Shown piece after piece: positions 1-7,111 of a DNA stretch of 7,111 nt. The notes below the pieces were generated by a model, which saw only the letters and a program-made list of their open reading frames with translations, was not told the DNA's origin and searched no databases. Where the stretch lies: IMG/VR virus record IMGVR_UViG_2585427777_000007. One strand, 5' to 3'. A program made the position numbers and the translations under genes. The first letter of the stretch is position 1; each line of letters opens with the position of its first letter. This DNA comes from a virus (lineage: Duplodnaviria > Heunggongvirae > Uroviricota > Caudoviricetes).

Positions 1-477
1 CCGGTGGATGACGCAGTCTCCCTGCTGACACGGGGTGGCAGACTGAGCTGTAAGTTTCGACTGTCAGGCGCACTGACCAACAACCAGTTCGGTCTGGGAA
101 TTTATCTGTATACCGATGTAGCGTTACCTGACGTCGTGGCGATGACCGGGACTGGTAACCCGTTCCTGATGTCGTTCTTCACCCAGACCACAGGCGGCAA
201 ACTGAATCTGATGCATCACAAGAAAGCCGGAAACACAAAGTTGGGCGAGTTCGGGAATTACAGTAACGACTGGCAGACGCTGGAGCTGGTGTTCACCGCC
301 GGCAGTGCCACGGTTACTCCGAAACTGAATGGAGTGGCTGGCCCGGCATTCCAGGTCATAAAAGACAGTCTGACACTGGGGCTGAATGCGCTGACGTTAA
401 CTGATATCACTAAAAATGCCGCGTACGGCGTCGATATCGGCAGCCTGGTGCTGGAAATCAATAATCCCGCAGCATAA
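1..477 (+). CDS. hypothetical protein, 5'-partial (frame open to window start); not recognisable as a P2 lysis or tail protein
   Basis: Reading frame is open from base 1 to TAA at 475-477 (ORF track calls GTG at 4). A 23-bp gap containing AGGAGA precedes the ATG of the next gene, so it is co-oriented and probably co-transcribed with the tail module. The translation is Gly/Thr/Asn/Leu-rich and protein-like, but I cannot place it in a family. Confidence 0.45.
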   Translation, partial: PVDDAVSLLTRGGRLSCKFRLSGALTNNQFGLGIYLYTDVALPDVVAMTGTGNPFLMSFFTQTTGGKLNLMHHKKAGNTKLGEFGNYSNDWQTLELVFTAGSATVTPKLNGVAGPAFQVIKDSLTLGLNALTLTDITKNAAYGVDIGSLVLEINNPAA

Positions 478-3421: not shown

Positions 3422-4022
3422 TTCGTTGTTACCACCATCAGCCAGCAATTTCATGCGTTGTGCCGAAGCCGTCGGAACACGCATTACAGACATTCCGGTA
3501 GACCTCAACACGTTGTGGTCGCCGGACACCTGCCCGGTGCATCTGCTGCCTTATCTCGCCTGGGCGTTTTCCGTTGACCGCTGGGATCGCAACTGGCCGG
3601 AAGAGACAAAGCGACAGGTAATTCGTGATGCATGGCTGATACACCGACACAAAGGGACCATCAGCGCACTGCGAAGAGCCGTGGAGCCTCTCGGCTACCT
3701 GATTGAAGTAAAGGAGTGGTGGCAACTCAATGAGGAGCCTGGGACATTTCGCATTGTTGTCGGAGTACTTGATCAGGGCATCACCGATGAAATGTATCAG
3801 GAACTTGAGCGCCTTATTGCGGATGCAAAACCAGTAAGTCGCCATCTGACGGGGCTGGCGATCAGCCTGAGTGTGAACGGAAAGATTTTCGTTGGTACGG
3901 GATGCTATTACGGCGACGCCCTGACGGTTTATCCCTACACCCCGGAGTCCATTATTGTCGAAGGGGATTATTTCCCTGCCCCGGCCATTCATTTAATTGA
4001 TAATCTGAGAGTAAACGCATGA
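3414..4022 (+). CDS. I: tail/baseplate protein I
   Basis: The ORF track frame starts at GTG 3381, but the ATG at 3414 overlaps the J stop (ATGAGTAA) and gives an MSNSLLPP... N-terminus like P2 gpI. Conserved ...WSPDTCPVHLLPYLAWAFSVDRWD... and ...ERLIADAKPVSRHL... segments. Stop TGA 4020-4022 overlaps the H start. Confidence 0.8.
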   Translation: MSNSLLPPSASNFMRCAEAVGTRITDIPVDLNTLWSPDTCPVHLLPYLAWAFSVDRWDRNWPEETKRQVIRDAWLIHRHKGTISALRRAVEPLGYLIEVKEWWQLNEEPGTFRIVVGVLDQGITDEMYQELERLIADAKPVSRHLTGLAISLSVNGKIFVGTGCYYGDALTVYPYTPESIIVEGDYFPAPAIHLIDNLRVNA

Positions 4023-5833
4023 CAGTGAAATACTACGCCATTCTGACTAATCAGGGCGCGGCACGACTGGCTAACGCGACGATGCTCGGCAGTAAGCTGA
4101 ATCTGACGCGAATGGCCGTTGGTGATGCAAATGGTGTGTTACCAACACCAGACCCTGCACAAACAAAACTGATTAACCAGAAACGCATTGCACCGCTGAA
4201 TCTTCTGAGTGTTGACCCTAACAATCAGAGCCAGATTATTGCGGAGCAAATCATCCCTGAAAGCGAGGGAGGATTCTGGATCCGTGAGATTGGTCTTTAT
4301 GATGATAAAGGTGTACTCATTGCGGTGGCAAACTGCCCGGAAACGTACAAACCGCAGTTGCAGGAAGGCAGTGGACGCACCCAGACTATCCGCATGATTC
4401 TGGTTGTCACGAACACCGAAGCCATCACGCTGAAAATCGACCCGTCTGTGGTTCTGGCAACCCGCAAATATGTGGATGATAAAATATCAGAGCACGAGCA
4501 GTCACGACGTCACCCGGACGCCTCGCTGACCGCAAAAGGCTTTGTTCAACTTAGCAGCGCCACCAACAGCACCTCTGAAACGCTGGCCGCAACACCGAAA
4601 GCGGTTAAGGCTGCATATGACCTGGCTAACGGGAAATATACCGCTCAGGATGCGACTACGGCACGAAAAGGCCTTGTTCAACTCAGTAGCGCCACCAACA
4701 GCACCTCTGAAACGCTGGCCGCCACACCGAAAGCGGTTAAGGCTGCATATGACCTGGCTAACGGGAAATATACCGCTCAGGATGCGACTACGGCACGAAA
4801 AGGCCTTGTTCAACTCAGTAGCGCCACCAACAGCACCTCTGAAACGCTGGCCGCCACACCGAAAGCGGTTAAGGCTGCATATGACCTGGCTAACGGGAAA
4901 TATACCGCTCAGGATGCGACTACGGCACGAAAAGGCCTTGTTCAACTCAGTAGCGCCACCAACAGCACCTCTGAAACGCTGGCCGCCACACCGAAAGCGG
5001 TTAAGGCTGCATATGACCTGGCTAACGGGAAATATACCGCTCAGGATGCGACTACGGCACGAAAAGGCCTTGTTCAACTCAGTAGCGCCACCAACAGCAC
5101 CTCTGAAACGCTGGCCGCCACACCGAAAGCGGTCAAGGCTGCATACGATCTGGCAAACGGAAAACAACCGGCAGATGCCACGCTCACTGCTCTGGCAGGA
5201 CTTGCCACTGCAGCAGATCGGTTGCCTTATTTTACCGGAGCAGACCGCGCAGCGCTGGCAACCCTTACAGCTATTGGTCGCGCTATTATCGCTAAGGGCA
5301 GTATAAAAGATGTCCTCAATTACCTTGGTTTAGGAGAAGGCTCGGCGCTACCCGTTGGTGTGCCTGTTCCGTGGCCCACCGCCACACCGCCAGCAGGCTG
5401 GTTAAAGTGCGACGGGCGCGCCTTTACAAAAGAACAATATCCTGTTCTGGCCAGAGCCTACCCGACCCTCCGTCTTCCTGATTTACGCGGTGAGTTTATC
5501 CGTGGATGGGACGACGGGCGCAAAGTTGATACGAGGCGTTCATTGCTAAGTGGTCAGGCTGCAACATTTATTCGTACAGCTTTGCAGGATTATTACGGTT
5601 ACGATCTGAATACTAATGTCAAAGTAGGTATCGCTTTTGCTACTGCTGATTCTGTTATAACCGTTGGAAACCCAGCTAATCCTAAAGCAGGAAATAATAG
5701 CGATTATGTTCCTGCATCAGCAGATAACTCCATAATGGGTACTCAAAGGACAGCGGAGGATAATTTTACCGGGGCATGGATATCAATGCGCCCCCGCAAT
5801 GTTGCGTTTAATTACATCGTAAGGGCCGCATAA
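4019..5833 (+). CDS. H: tail fibre protein H (P2-like N-terminal anchor, tandem fibre repeats, tail-collar-like domain, variable receptor-binding tip)
   Basis: ATG at 4019 overlaps the I stop (ATGA). 604 aa. N-terminal ~160 aa (...MAVGDANGVLPTPD...GGFWIREIGLYDDKGVLIAVAN...EHEQSRRHPDASLTAKGF) match the P2 gpH constant region. Then five copies of ...VQLSSATNSTSETLAATPKAVKAAYDLANGK..., the phage tail fibre repeat. The C-terminal ...PAGWLKCDGRAFTKEQYPVLARAYP...LPDLRGEFIRGWDDGR resembles a tail-collar domain, followed by a divergent tip ending RPRNVAFNYIVRAA. Confidence 0.9.
   Translation: MTVKYYAILTNQGAARLANATMLGSKLNLTRMAVGDANGVLPTPDPAQTKLINQKRIAPLNLLSVDPNNQSQIIAEQIIPESEGGFWIREIGLYDDKGVLIAVANCPETYKPQLQEGSGRTQTIRMILVVTNTEAITLKIDPSVVLATRKYVDDKISEHEQSRRHPDASLTAKGFVQLSSATNSTSETLAATPKAVKAAYDLANGKYTAQDATTARKGLVQLSSATNSTSETLAATPKAVKAAYDLANGKYTAQDATTARKGLVQLSSATNSTSETLAATPKAVKAAYDLANGKYTAQDATTARKGLVQLSSATNSTSETLAATPKAVKAAYDLANGKYTAQDATTARKGLVQLSSATNSTSETLAATPKAVKAAYDLANGKQPADATLTALAGLATAADRLPYFTGADRAALATLTAIGRAIIAKGSIKDVLNYLGLGEGSALPVGVPVPWPTATPPAGWLKCDGRAFTKEQYPVLARAYPTLRLPDLRGEFIRGWDDGRKVDTRRSLLSGQAATFIRTALQDYYGYDLNTNVKVGIAFATADSVITVGNPANPKAGNNSDYVPASADNSIMGTQRTAEDNFTGAWISMRPRNVAFNYIVRAA
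4535..5164 (+). repeat. tandem array of 132-bp (44-codon) repeats inside H: 4 full copies plus 1 truncated/diverged copy
   Basis: Unit starts at 4535, 4667, 4799, 4931 and 5063. Copies 2-4 (4667-5062) appear identical base for base by eye. Copy 1 differs at about 4 positions. Copy 5 diverges after about 85 bp and runs into unique sequence. Confidence 0.9.
5313..5338. other. candidate site-specific invertase crossover site (hix/gix/cix-like) at the H constant/variable junction
   Basis: TCCTCAATTACC TT GGTTTAGGAGAA is a 26-bp imperfect palindrome around an ACC-TT-GGT core. It resembles, from memory, the AAACC-NN-GGTTT core of Din-family sites, and it sits exactly where cassette homology begins. 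Not verified against a consensus. Confidence 0.3.
5327..5525 (+). repeat. direct repeat copy 1 (about 200 bp, roughly 90% nt identity to 5841-6040): conserved 5' part of the tail-fibre C-terminal cassette
   Basis: Aligns to 5841-6040 with scattered mismatches, from ggtttaggagaaggctcggcgct... through ...ggatgggacgacgggcgcaa. Encodes GEGSALPVGVPVPWPTATPPAGWL...LPDLRGEFIRGWDDGRK in both copies. Confidence 0.85.
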
Positions 5834-5852
5834 AAACGTTGGTTTGGGGGAA
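5827..5852. other. candidate site-specific invertase crossover site, second copy, immediately after the H stop codon
   Basis: CGCATAAAAACG TT GGTTTGGGGGAA has an AAAAAC-G-TT-GGTTT core at the start of the second cassette, in the same orientation as the 5313-5338 site. Not verified against a consensus. Confidence 0.3.
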
Positions 5853-6040
5853 GGCTCGGCGCTGCCCGTTGGTGTACCTGTTCCGTGGCCCACTGCCACA
5901 CCGCCAGCAGGCTGGTTACAGTGCAACGGAGCTACGTTCACCAAAGAACAATATCCTGTTCTGGCCAGAGTCTACCCGACCCTCCGTCTTCCCGATTTGC
6001 GCGGTGAGTTTATCCGTGGATGGGACGACGGGCGCAAGAT
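5841..6040 (+). repeat. direct repeat copy 2 (partner of 5327-5525)
   Basis: Same alignment as above. The offset between copies is 514 bp, so recombination between them would fuse the second cassette to H in frame. Confidence 0.85.
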
Positions 6041-6317
6041 TGACGAGGGGCGTAAGTTGCTTTCATGGCAGAAAGGTACACTGGTCGGCGGTCATGACGA
6101 TAACGATTCTTCGCTTGATATCTCGTACATGAGTAACGGAAATAATATTGACTATGGCGGCGATAAGGTGTTTGCGGGGAATTACCGTAGCGATTATTTG
6201 TGGTACGTAATTCTGGGTGGAACAAACAGTCGCGCAAAAGCCGAATTAAACGGAGCATTCTTTAACATAACCCGCCCCCGCAATATCGCGTTTAACTATA
6301 TCGTGAGGGCGGCGTGA
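5844..6317 (+). CDS. silent alternative tail-fibre C-terminal cassette (tail-collar-like domain plus different variable tip); no ATG or RBS
   Basis: Frame is open from 5823 to TGA 6315-6317; the ORF track's start at 5844 is a TTG with no Shine-Dalgarno. The first ~65 aa are about 90% identical to H residues ~441-505, the middle is unrelated, and the last 14 aa (RPRNIAFNYIVRAA) are again conserved. It is in a different frame from H, so it cannot be made by read-through. Confidence 0.7.
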   Translation: MGEGSALPVGVPVPWPTATPPAGWLQCNGATFTKEQYPVLARVYPTLRLPDLRGEFIRGWDDGRKIDEGRKLLSWQKGTLVGGHDDNDSSLDISYMSNGNNIDYGGDKVFAGNYRSDYLWYVILGGTNSRAKAELNGAFFNITRPRNIAFNYIVRAA

Positions 6318-6323
6318 TACCGT

Positions 6324-6938
6324 TCAACTGGCAAGTGCCAGTGGCGCTTCCGGCCAGCTGATTTCAGGTGCCGTGCTGATATCCAGTGCGTTCAGCTCGT
6401 CGATATAATCCAGCACGGCGTTCAGTTTTGCCGTTTCTTCTGGTGTCAGACTGCGACCAGCACGCAGTTTGAGGTTGATAAGATCGACTGACGCCATCGC
6501 CTGTTTCACCCGTTGCTGGCGTTGCTGTCTGGCAACCTCCAGTTCTGCGGCTCGCTGCCGTTCAGTATCGGTTACCCACGCCTCACCGTTCCAGGTATCC
6601 CATGGCGTGGCTGGCTGTTTTGTGGTGGTGTCCGCCGGGTAATCACCCGGTTGGGTAATCAGAACAGGGTTACCGTTCTCCGTGCTGTATACCGTCTCGC
6701 CGCGGTGATCAGGCACATGCTCCCACCCGTTCAGCGTGGCAGTCCGGCAAACCACGTAACCCGAAATTGCCTCCGGCGGTGCATCGGCGCACGAATGTGC
6801 CGGAGTACCCACCCCAAGGGCGAGATACTCCACAGAGGATGAGGTGTATTCCCGGGTTTCCTCGTCATAGTGATATACAGTGATATCGCCCGCTACAGTG
6901 GCGATACCGTTTTCATCCAGAACTGCAGTGTTACTCAT
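6324..6938 (-). CDS. tail fibre assembly protein (Tfa chaperone, lambda Tfa / P2 gpG family)
   Basis: 204 aa. ATG is the complement of 6936-6938, with GAGGG 7 nt upstream on the - strand. C-terminal ...YIDELNALDISTAPEISWPEAPL and central ...W.HV.DHRGETVY.....NGEAWVTDTE... parallel lambda Tfa (...RVDTSTAPDIEWPAVP; ...DHRGKTVY...WNGTAWVKDTE) as recalled. Convergent with the silent cassette, with only 6 bp between the two stop codons. Confidence 0.85.
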   Translation of the reverse strand: MSNTAVLDENGIATVAGDITVYHYDEETREYTSSSVEYLALGVGTPAHSCADAPPEAISGYVVCRTATLNGWEHVPDHRGETVYSTENGNPVLITQPGDYPADTTTKQPATPWDTWNGEAWVTDTERQRAAELEVARQQRQQRVKQAMASVDLINLKLRAGRSLTPEETAKLNAVLDYIDELNALDISTAPEISWPEAPLALAS

Positions 6939-7111
6939 TAAACTGCCCTCACAATGTAATTAAGTGCAATGCTACGGGGTCTGACAGTGATACCCTTCGC
7001 ATACCCGCTTCTGATAGAGGTCAGAATAGTAGCCTGCATACCATTGTCTGACATTGCCATGACAGGATTGCTGAATGTTGTCCCGTCCGGCATTTTAAAG
7101 CTGCCCTCACG
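6938..7111 (-). CDS. 3' end of a third tail-fibre C-terminal cassette (- strand), 5'-partial at window edge; stop overlaps the Tfa start (TAATG)
   Basis: The - strand frame is open from the window edge to TAA (complement of 6938-6940) and ends ...GITVRPRSIALNYIVRAV, homologous to the last 14 aa of H and of the silent cassette. There is an internal ATG at the complement of 7091-7093. It lies directly upstream of, and is coupled to, the - strand Tfa. Confidence 0.5.
   Translation of the reverse strand, partial: REGSFKMPDGTTFSNPVMAMSDNGMQATILTSIRSGYAKGITVRPRSIALNYIVRAV

What the first reader, a model, noticed from the sequence alone, without database searches (positions are those of the whole stretch)
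6324..6938. The expressed fibre has no same-strand Tfa downstream; the only Tfa is convergent, 6 bp from the silent cassette stop
In P2, G (Tfa) follows H on the same strand. Here the + strand after H contains only a start-less cassette, and the stops at 6315-6317 (+) and 6324-6326 (-) leave a 6-bp gap with no room for a terminator. Either this Tfa is transcribed from a promoter on the far side, or this isomer is a low-fitness or off state, or the chaperone for the current tip is encoded elsewhere.
Basis: partly seen in the sequence, partly recalled or inferred. Interest (0 to 1): 0.45.

Follow-up and report, generated by a model that had tools for sequence, protein, structure and literature searches.

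The report
One flipping chaperone, three fibre tips
The "missing" tail-fibre chaperone is explained by a known kind of DNA-shuffling switch (Pin/Min type): the phage carries three interchangeable fibre tips and one chaperone gene, and the chaperone gene flips at every inversion, so this window is simply the arrangement in which it points the wrong way.

Summary
H (4019-5833) is followed by a start-less tip cassette (to 6317). A 6-bp gap follows, then a convergent Tfa gene (6324-6938, minus strand), which is coupled by an ATGA overlap to a third cassette on the minus strand.

This is isomer A of a Pin/Min-type multiple-inversion module. The module has three e14-pix-like crossover sites, three T4-gp37-like "collar" tips, one lambda/e14-type Tfa, and a Gin/Pin-like invertase just beyond the window. 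All four predicted isomers occur in E. coli genomes at 100% identity.

The one-Tfa design and the 5-6 bp convergent junction are family-wide (33 of 34 arrays). Nearly identical Tfas serve unrelated tips, so the chaperone appears generic and shared.

One question remains open. The tip convergent to the Tfa can never be co-oriented with it, yet such tips evolve under purifying selection. How the chaperone is supplied in Tfa-antisense isomers is unresolved, and no promoter was found. This is a new member of a known kind, of modest interest.

The parts
4019..5833 (+). Expressed tail-fibre gene H. It comprises the constant part Sc (to about 5325) fused to tip cassette Sv1.
   Evidence: Pfam Phage_tail_fib N-terminal domain 1.3e-61, Phage_fiber_2 repeats 2.4e-101, and Collar 2.5e-15. 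ORF.
5313..5338 (+). Crossover site s1 (TCCTCAATTACC TT GGTTTAGGAGAA; core TT at 5325-5326), at the Sc/Sv1 boundary.
   Evidence: Aligned with s2 and s3, and homology starts at the core. 15 of 16 bases match the e14 P-segment repeat TTGGTTTGGGAGAAGG reported in PMC12529663.
5325..5833 (+). Tip cassette Sv1, currently expressed. It has a collar domain, a variable head, and the C-terminal strand RPRNVAFNYIVRAA.
   Evidence: PDB 2XGF (T4 gp37 tip) E=1.5e-15, with collar and C-terminal strand matches. The 226-nt 5' block repeats at 5836-6061.
5827..5852 (+). Crossover site s2 (CGCATAAAAACG TT GGTTTGGGGGAA; core TT at 5839-5840), in direct orientation with s1.
   Evidence: Isomers built by cutting at this core are found in nature at 100% identity.
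5839..6317 (+). Silent tip cassette Sv2. It is start-less and in frame for fusion to Sc.
   Evidence: Pfam Collar 1.4e-15. It is fused to Sc in isomer D genomes and in E. coli MS10860 (L002).
6311..6324 (+). Relic left half of a crossover site, which includes the 6-bp gap 6318-6323. Homology to the Sv1 3' end plus the s2 left half stops exactly at the core TT (5840 aligns with 6324).
   Evidence: Direct repeat D3, 5789-5840 versus 6273-6324, 81%. Alignment. The junction is conserved in 33 of 34 arrays. The relic reading is an inference.
6324..6938 (-). The module's single tail-fibre assembly gene (Tfa), carried on the innermost invertible segment. It has its own Shine-Dalgarno sequence (GAGGG) inside the end of Sv3.
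   Evidence: Caudo_TAP 3.5e-28. 59% identical to e14 TfaE. Shine-Dalgarno and ATGA overlap.
6938..7111 (-). 3' part of silent tip cassette Sv3, cut by the window end and coupled to the Tfa by an ATGA overlap.
   Evidence: ORF ...RPRSIALNYIVRAV. The full cassette, site s3 and the invertase are seen in L001 and L003.

Best explanation
The window shows one isomer (A) of a Pin/Min-type multiple DNA-inversion module that sits at the end of the fibre gene of a P2-like prophage.

Three tip cassettes, all T4-gp37-like collar tips, each begin at an e14-pix-like crossover site. Sv1 and Sv2 lie on the + strand and Sv3 on the - strand. A Gin/PinE-like serine invertase lies just past the window. The module holds only one Tfa gene. 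It sits on the innermost segment [Sv2 -> <- Tfa <- Sv3], whose two end sites are inverted relative to each other.

Inversion needs oppositely oriented sites, so every inversion spans the Tfa and flips it. Two segments give 2! x 2 = 4 isomers:
- A: H-Sv1 expressed, Tfa antisense.
- C: H-Sv1 expressed, Tfa co-oriented about 0.5 kb downstream.
- B: H-Sv3 expressed, Tfa directly downstream with an ATGA overlap.
- D: H-Sv2 expressed, Tfa convergent.

The Tfa is a generic chaperone for collar-type tips, shared by all three cassettes. It is not a private partner of Sv3.

Shown here: the anatomy, the three sites, the four isomers in nature, the family-wide one-Tfa design, and the lack of head specificity in the Tfa.

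Inferred: that the Tfa acts in trans on Sv1 and Sv2. Also inferred: in isomers A and D it is supplied at low level by - strand transcription entering from the invertase side. In this lineage the late FI-U operon points at the array. In e14 the pin-proximal side is reported to be expressed.
For: Sites and layout.

All four predicted isomers are found as single 2,529-bp alignments at 100% identity in E. coli genomes. Genomes with at least 80% coverage number A 208, B 176, C 139, D 129. Sibling strains p11A and p11B carry isomers A and B at the same locus.

Invertase: E=1e-91 to Mu Gin (PDB 3UJ3/4M6F) and 83% identical to K-12 PinE.

Tips: PDB 2XGF, the T4 gp37 tip, E=1.5e-15.

One central Tfa in arrays of up to 9-10 cassettes.

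33 of 34 convergent junctions have a 5-6 bp gap.

Single collar-tip fibres are usually followed by a same-strand Tfa of this subfamily (67 loci). This includes Sv1-like heads (95% identical; L084-86) and Sv2-like heads (L009, L010, L008).

In 23 pairs the Tfa N-domains are at least 90% identical while the coupled heads are under 40% identical.

Convergent-position heads give pN/pS 0.21, against 0.27 for Tfa-coupled heads.

Literature: gp38/Tfa chaperones lie next to gp37-like tips, and lambda Tfa substitutes for gp38 (PMC9659904). The e14 repeat sequence, and the reported expression of the pin-proximal chimera StfE2 from the chromosome, come from PMC12529663.
Against: No sigma-70-like promoter or P2-type TGT-N12-ACA element was found that could drive the - strand Tfa.

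In the window's lineage a 12-bp-stem bidirectional terminator separates the convergent FI-U operon from the invertase.

The invertase-proximal spacer of this lineage lacks the ATG that e14 has.

Classical collar/collar segments keep two Tfas of the same subfamily, which suggests co-orientation matters.

About 16 collar-tip fibres have no Tfa within 700 bp, so some tips may not need one nearby.

The isomer counts may partly overlap between A and D and between B and C, because of the way the search tool joins alignment pieces.

Purifying selection on convergent heads could have acted while those heads sat in other array positions. The Sv2 cluster itself has too few substitutions to test (2.5 synonymous, 5.5 nonsynonymous).
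Confidence: 0.72

Rival explanations
1. The Tfa belongs only to the cassette that precedes it (Sv3). Sv1 and Sv2 fold without it, or with host or general chaperones. On this view isomers A and D are fully functional and no - strand expression is needed. The Tfa might also act as an extra adhesin cap only on Sv3 fibres.
For: The Tfa is physically and translationally coupled only to Sv3, by an ATGA overlap.

Sv2 can never be co-oriented with it, yet convergent-position heads are intact and under purifying selection.

About 16 collar-tip fibres have no Tfa within 700 bp.

No - strand promoter was found.
Against: Sv1-like and Sv2-like heads in simple loci are followed directly by a Tfa of this subfamily, and an Sv2-like head is the Tfa-coupled cassette in L008.

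Nearly identical Tfas pair with unrelated heads.

Every characterised gp37-, Stf-, S- or H-type fibre needs its gp38/Tfa-type chaperone (PMC9608196 and PMC9659904; also my own knowledge of P2 G, Mu U and P1 U).
Confidence: 0.2
2. Isomers with the Tfa antisense (A and D) are off or low-fitness states. The fibre is made without its chaperone, so the particles are poorly infective or not infective. The phage tolerates losing about half of its isomers, and the convergent cassette survives mainly because its crossover site is needed for inversion.
For: There is no promoter, no second Tfa and no terminator.

Classical Mu-, P1- and e14-type segments keep one Tfa per orientation, including collar/collar segments.

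Isomers are about equally frequent in lysogens, where nothing selects among them.
Against: Heads in the convergent position come from at least 4-5 unrelated families. All are intact, with pN/pS 0.21, similar to Tfa-coupled heads.

The one-Tfa design is conserved across many arrays and at least three phage backbones, which is hard to reconcile with a permanently dead cassette.
Confidence: 0.18
3. The arrangement is decay. A second Tfa, for the + orientation, was recently deleted from a classical two-Tfa G-like segment in a defective prophage, and the layout has no function.
For: The gap looks like a relic half crossover site, which implies a past rearrangement. Many such prophages are cryptic.
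Against: The same junction, with a 5-6 bp gap and the same Tfa C-terminus, recurs in 33 of 34 arrays with different heads and backbones.

All four isomers are still produced, and sibling strains differ in isomer.

The cassettes and the Tfa are intact. The rest of the P2-like prophage is complete in L160.
Confidence: 0.04

Closest known systems
Min multiple DNA-inversion system of plasmid p15B (Sandmeier, Iida, Arber and colleagues, 1990-1992). Cited from my own knowledge; the papers were not held in the library.
   Same: A Din-family serine invertase acts on more than two crossover sites, and several alternative 3' fibre-gene cassettes can fuse to one constant 5' part. The cassettes are related to e14. 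The isomer rule n! x 2 gives 4 here and reproduces the published 240 for five segments. The same module, with identical Tfa and invertase proteins, sits in a P1-like phage-plasmid.
   Different: There are three cassettes and sites here rather than six, and the host element is a P2-like prophage rather than a P1-like plasmid. I could not check whether p15B also carries a single Tfa. Its 3.5-kb size fits six cassettes plus one Tfa, but that is an inference.
Pin P-segment of the E. coli K-12 cryptic prophage e14 (stfP-tfaP / tfaE-stfE-pinE).
   Same: The invertase is 83% identical and the Tfa is 59% identical to TfaE. StfE is a collar tip ending RPRNIAFNYIVRAA. The crossover repeat TTGGTTTGGGAGAAGG matches s1 and s2 at 15 of 16 bases (PMC12529663).
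   Different: e14 has two sites, two cassettes and two Tfas, one per orientation. Its pin-proximal spacer supplies an in-frame ATG, which the window's lineage lacks.
Gin/G segment of phage Mu and Cin/C segment of phage P1.
   Same: Inversion swaps the C-terminal part of the fibre gene. The invertase is homologous to Gin (E=1e-91 to PDB 3UJ3). The promoter lies outside the segment.
   Different: Mu and P1 carry Sv-U and S'v-U' pairs, so a co-oriented Tfa always follows the expressed fibre. Here one Tfa serves three tips and is antisense in half of the isomers.
P2 H-G, and P2-like phages with a classical invertible segment (pro483, Peduovirus magyaro).
   Same: The baseplate and fibre operon V-W-J-I-H is the same, as are the H N-terminal domain and repeats. 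Those phages also carry an invertase after the fibre region.
   Different: P2 has a fixed H followed by G. pro483 and its relatives have two convergent Tfas. In the window's lineage the FI-U operon is also inverted relative to P2.
T4 gp37 tip with gp38, and lambda Stf with Tfa.
   Same: The cassettes share the gp37 collar and the C-terminal NIAFNYIVR strand (PDB 2XGF). The chaperone belongs to the lambda/HK97 Tfa family. Chaperones are interchangeable between tips (PMC9659904).
   Different: Those systems have a fixed fibre gene with the chaperone always directly downstream, and no inversion.
R64 shufflon (Rci).
   Same: It is a multi-segment inversion system that swaps the C-terminal ends of a surface adhesin.
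   Different: It uses a tyrosine recombinase, its target is the pilus adhesin PilV, and no chaperone gene is involved.

Membership tests
Din-family (Gin/Cin/Pin/Min) serine-invertase tail-fibre switch | A small serine DNA invertase encoded next to the invertible region. | tested here: met
   The invertase is not inside the window. In close relatives (L001, L002, L003, L160) it lies directly after site s3. It scores E=1e-91 to Mu Gin and is 83% identical to PinE.
Din-family (Gin/Cin/Pin/Min) serine-invertase tail-fibre switch | 26-bp crossover sites with a conserved half-site and an identical 2-bp core, located at the constant/variable boundary of the fibre gene. | tested here: met
   s1 is at 5313-5338 and s2 at 5827-5852. 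Both have core TT and right half GGTTT(A/G)GG(A/G)GAA. They match the e14 repeat at 15 of 16 bases.
Din-family (Gin/Cin/Pin/Min) serine-invertase tail-fibre switch | At least one pair of sites in inverted orientation. | tested here: met
   Site s3 is inverted. It lies beyond the window end and is seen in L001 (9241-9256), L003 and L160.
Din-family (Gin/Cin/Pin/Min) serine-invertase tail-fibre switch | Alternative orientations that actually occur. | tested here: met
   All four predicted isomers are found at 100% identity over 2,529 bp in natural genomes.
Din-family (Gin/Cin/Pin/Min) serine-invertase tail-fibre switch | A Fis-dependent recombinational enhancer in the 5' part of the invertase gene. 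| not tested
   The invertase lies outside the window and no Fis-site analysis was done.
Min-type multiple inversion (more than two sites) | Several tandem cassettes, each with its own site, whose isomer set follows n! x 2. | tested here: met
   Three sites and two segments predict four isomers, and all four are observed. Larger arrays of the same design appear in IMG/VR loci.
Caudo_TAP tail-fibre assembly protein (lambda Tfa / P2 G / Mu U) | Sequence membership in the family. | tested here: met
   Pfam PF02413, E=3.5e-28 over the full model. 59-62% identical to e14 TfaE and HK97 gp29.
Caudo_TAP tail-fibre assembly protein (lambda Tfa / P2 G / Mu U) | Encoded directly downstream of, and co-transcribed with, the fibre gene it serves. 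| tested here: not met
   Not met in this window, where the gene is convergent and 6 bp from the Sv2 stop. Met in isomer B and, at a distance, in isomer C.
Caudo_TAP tail-fibre assembly protein (lambda Tfa / P2 G / Mu U) | Required for folding or trimerisation of the fibre tip. | not testable with these tools
   This needs genetics or co-expression. Only comparative support is available.
T4 gp37-like collar receptor-binding tip | A collar domain, an inserted variable head, and a C-terminal strand that returns to the collar. | tested here: met
   Pfam Collar for H and Sv2. PDB 2XGF matches residues 6-70 and the C-terminal ...NVAFNYIVRAA strand.

The most novel reading that the evidence does not exclude
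The single invertible Tfa is a second switch layered on the tip switch. In this design every inversion toggles chaperone supply. A tip might therefore exist in two functional forms, Tfa-assisted or Tfa-capped versus Tfa-free. Alternatively, such arrays depend on convergent late transcription from both flanks; in this lineage the FI-U operon is inverted so that it points at the array. Either case would be a previously undescribed way of regulating fibre assembly by DNA inversion.
Probability: 0.1. Interest if true: 0.6.

Novelty: new member of a known kind. Interest (0 to 1): 0.35.

Why it matters
The finding shows that an apparently broken fibre/chaperone arrangement in a common prophage of uropathogenic E. 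coli is a working host-range shuffling device. Annotators should therefore read such "partial tail protein" ORFs as cassettes rather than pseudogenes.

It also sharpens a question about Pin/Min-type arrays that none of the papers I could access addresses. One generic chaperone gene that flips at every inversion somehow serves up to ten tips, including one tip that can never be co-oriented with it. The answer bears on engineering phages and tailocins with swappable tips, in particular on whether a chaperone must be supplied with each tip.

Tried and rejected
- Promoters for the - strand Tfa. Sigma-70-type scans of the window (5200-7111), L001 (6900-10000) and L160 (16700-19200) found none in the relevant place or strand, and fewer hits than shuffled sequence.
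- P2 Ogr-type TGT-N12-ACA elements. There are none in the window. The single hit between s3 and the invertase in L160 is within chance and is absent from other spacer families.
- A second Tfa elsewhere in the element. My Tfa profile finds only one in the complete prophages L160 and L002.
- A terminator in the 6-bp gap. None was found.
- Whether the inverted FI-U block is itself a programmed inversion. None of 5,426 genomes shows the canonical adjacency, and no flanking inverted repeats were found.
- PDB sequence search with the Tfa. It gave only noise, and Mu Tfa 5YVQ was not detected by sequence.
- NCBIfam gave no family for the Tfa or the cassette.
- The p15B, Mu and P1 primary papers and the Johnson review could not be retrieved, so statements about p15B rest on my own knowledge.
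- Papers on programmed inversions, carotovoricin and D6-like plasmids do not address the single-Tfa question.
- Exact isomer counts. The search tool joins collinear alignment pieces, so the counts at 80% coverage or more may overlap between A and D and between B and C. Only the single-piece 100% hits are unambiguous.

Full report
**Observation**

The window is the tail-module end of a P2-like prophage. It holds V (1593-2174), W, J, I and H (4019-5833) on the + strand. After the H stop comes a 157-codon + strand ORF (5844-6317) with a Collar domain and no credible start. Next is a 6-bp gap (6318-6323). Then comes a 204-codon - strand ORF (6324-6938) that is an unambiguous Caudo_TAP tail-fibre assembly protein (E=3.5e-28). 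It is 59% identical to e14 TfaE and 61.5% identical to HK97 gp29. Its ATG overlaps (ATGA) the stop of a further - strand cassette that runs off the window end (6938-7111). No terminator-like hairpin lies at the junction.

**What surrounds it**

An E. coli chromosome locus that is 98.7% identical over 5200-7111 (L001) and a metagenomic contig that is 99.3% identical (L003) show the rest. The third cassette (Sv3) runs back to a crossover site, followed by a serine recombinase gene on the + strand.

The three cassettes share a 5' block of about 230 bp. Homology begins at the same point in each: xxxxxAAAC(C/G) TT GGTTT(A/G)GG(A/G)GAAGG. These sites match the published e14 P-segment repeat TTGGTTTGGGAGAAGG at 15 of 16 positions (PMC12529663). 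In the window they are s1 (5313-5338) and s2 (5827-5852), in direct orientation. The third site, s3, is inverted and lies beyond the window.

The invertase of the window's own lineage (L160) scores E=1e-91 against Mu Gin and is 83% identical to K-12 PinE.

**Isomers**

I cut L001 at the three core dinucleotides and built the three other arrangements that inversion between oppositely oriented sites can produce. Each one, and the parental form, is found in complete E. coli genomes as a single 2,529-bp alignment at 100% identity.

| Isomer | Expressed fibre | Tfa position | Genomes at >=80% coverage |
|---|---|---|---|
| A | H-Sv1 | antisense | 208 |
| B | H-Sv3 | directly downstream, same strand | 176 |
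| C | H-Sv1 | co-oriented, about 0.5 kb downstream | 139 |
| D | H-Sv2 | convergent | 129 |

These counts may partly overlap between A and D and between B and C, because of how the tool joins alignment pieces. Sibling strains differ in isomer at the same locus: p11A has A and p11B has B, while C7 has B and C9 has D. So the switch is active.

Every allowed inversion spans the Tfa, so the Tfa flips each time. The count 2! x 2 = 4 follows the same rule that gives the published 240 (5! x 2) for p15B Min (my own knowledge).

**A family-wide design**

I collected about 157 IMG/VR loci holding relatives of the Sv1 or Sv2 heads and mapped collar cassettes, Tfas and invertases with profiles built from the window.

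- Single collar-tip fibres are usually followed at once by a same-strand Tfa of this subfamily (67 loci). These include heads 95% identical to Sv1 (L084-86) and heads 55-66% identical to Sv2 (L009, L010).
- Arrays with an invertase hold up to 9-10 cassettes and, with few exceptions, exactly one Tfa. It is always central: + cassettes, then the Tfa, then - cassettes.
- In 33 of 34 convergent cassette/Tfa junctions the gap is 5-6 bp, and the Tfa has a characteristic C-terminal ...LxxAS extension.
- Homology between the Sv1 3' end plus the s2 left half-site and the Sv2 3' end plus the gap stops exactly at the core TT. The 6-bp gap therefore looks like the relic of a crossover half-site. This is an inference.
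- The same module, with identical Tfa and invertase proteins, also sits in a P1-like phage-plasmid. That is the setting of the classical Min system.

**Is the Tfa private to Sv3 or shared?**

The cassettes match the T4 gp37 tip (PDB 2XGF, E=1.5e-15), both in the collar and in the C-terminal ...NIAFNYIVR strand. This tip family is reported always to have a gp38/Tfa-type chaperone directly downstream, and lambda Tfa can replace gp38 (PMC9659904; PMC9608196).

- Among 126 distinct cassette-Tfa pairs, 23 comparisons have Tfa N-domains at least 90% identical while the coupled heads are under 40% identical. In the 80-90% band, 71% of the heads are unrelated.
- An Sv2-like head is the Tfa-coupled cassette in another array (L008).
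- Some phages carry several collar fibres but only one Tfa.

These results favour a generic chaperone that recognises the conserved collar scaffold, and so a chaperone shared by all three tips. Two results point the other way. Classical collar/collar segments keep two Tfas of the same subfamily. About 16 collar fibres have no Tfa nearby.

**The residual puzzle**

Sv2 is welded convergently to the Tfa, so it can only be expressed when the Tfa is antisense. Heads in that position belong to at least 4-5 unrelated families, and all are intact. Pooled pN/pS is 0.21, against 0.27 for Tfa-coupled heads. This argues that Tfa-antisense isomers are productive. Two caveats apply. Heads may have been selected while in other array positions. 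The Sv2 cluster itself has too few substitutions to test.

I found no way for the - strand Tfa to be transcribed. There is no sigma-70-like promoter, no P2 late-promoter dyad, and no second Tfa in the complete prophage.

Two leads remain.

- In the window's lineage the FI-U late operon is inverted relative to P2 and points at the invertase and the array. This is a fixed gene order: none of 5,426 genomes shows the canonical adjacency. However, a 12-bp-stem bidirectional terminator intervenes.
- In e14 the pin-proximal side is reported to be expressed from the chromosome, giving the StfE2 phenotype in the cured strain (PMC12529663). However, the e14 spacer has an in-frame ATG that this lineage lacks.

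**Verdict**

The arrangement is one state of a Pin/Min-type multiple-inversion tail-fibre switch with a single, flipping, probably shared Tfa.

This is a new member of a known kind. How the chaperone is supplied in half of the isomers, and always for the convergent tip, remains open. It is testable with locked isomers and strand-specific RNA-seq.

Noticed in passing
window 4402-5193: The H shaft holds five tandem 132-bp (44-aa Phage_fiber_2) repeats that are 91-98% identical. Copy number varies between close relatives: the 99%-identical contig L003 lacks exactly 396 bp, which is 3 repeats. The long overlapping ORFs on other frames and strands here (for example 4502-5167 on the - strand and 4542-5306 on the + strand) are by-products of the repeats.
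   Followed up: partly
L160 18622-24207 and L002 17148-22720 (outside the window, same prophage lineage): The FI-FII-E-E'-T-U tail operon lies on the opposite strand to V-W-J-I-H. It reads toward the invertase and the array, whereas in P2, pro483 and P2-T22 it is co-directional. D and ogr remain on the + strand, behind a 158-bp divergent region. None of 5,426 E. coli genomes shows the canonical adjacency of this invertase and FI, and no flanking inverted repeats were found. It is therefore a fixed gene order, not a switch.
   Followed up: partly
L160 18585-18614: A perfect 12-bp-stem hairpin (AAAACCGCTAAT...ATTAGCGGTTTT) overlaps the invertase stop codon and lies 8 bp from the gpU stop. It looks like a bidirectional intrinsic terminator shared by the convergent invertase and the FI-U operon.
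   Followed up: partly
window 1-477: The first ORF is the 3' end of a gene of about 1.9 kb annotated as DUF6645. In the complete prophage it sits between the lysis genes (lysC) and the tail-completion genes, a position that is empty in P2. It may be a moron or an extra structural gene.
   Followed up: no
L001 7001-9895; L161 4365-8900: The inversion module is portable. Identical Tfa (WP_000072166.1) and invertase (WP_000904922.1) proteins occur in a chromosomal prophage next to ybjC and in a 93-kb P1-like phage-plasmid (pKY1497_2). The P2-like lineage of the window combines the same Tfa with a different invertase allele and a different site-to-invertase spacer.
   Followed up: partly
L164 4100-4185 (K-12 e14) and related loci listed: In e14-type spacers between the crossover site and the invertase start, the motif TGGCAT-N7-TGCT has the GG-N10-GC spacing of a sigma-54 -24/-12 element, about 25 nt upstream of the invertase ATG. 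It recurs in several spacer variants. The same spacer supplies an in-frame ATG that reads into the invertible segment (the StfE leader MPFACYFFIFINV).
   Followed up: no
L002 15424-15957 and 15826-15906; L160 17412-17930: RefSeq annotates silent cassettes inconsistently: as 'hypothetical protein', as 'phage tail protein, incomplete', or as pseudogenes missing an N-terminus. They are intact inversion cassettes, not decayed genes.
   Followed up: yes
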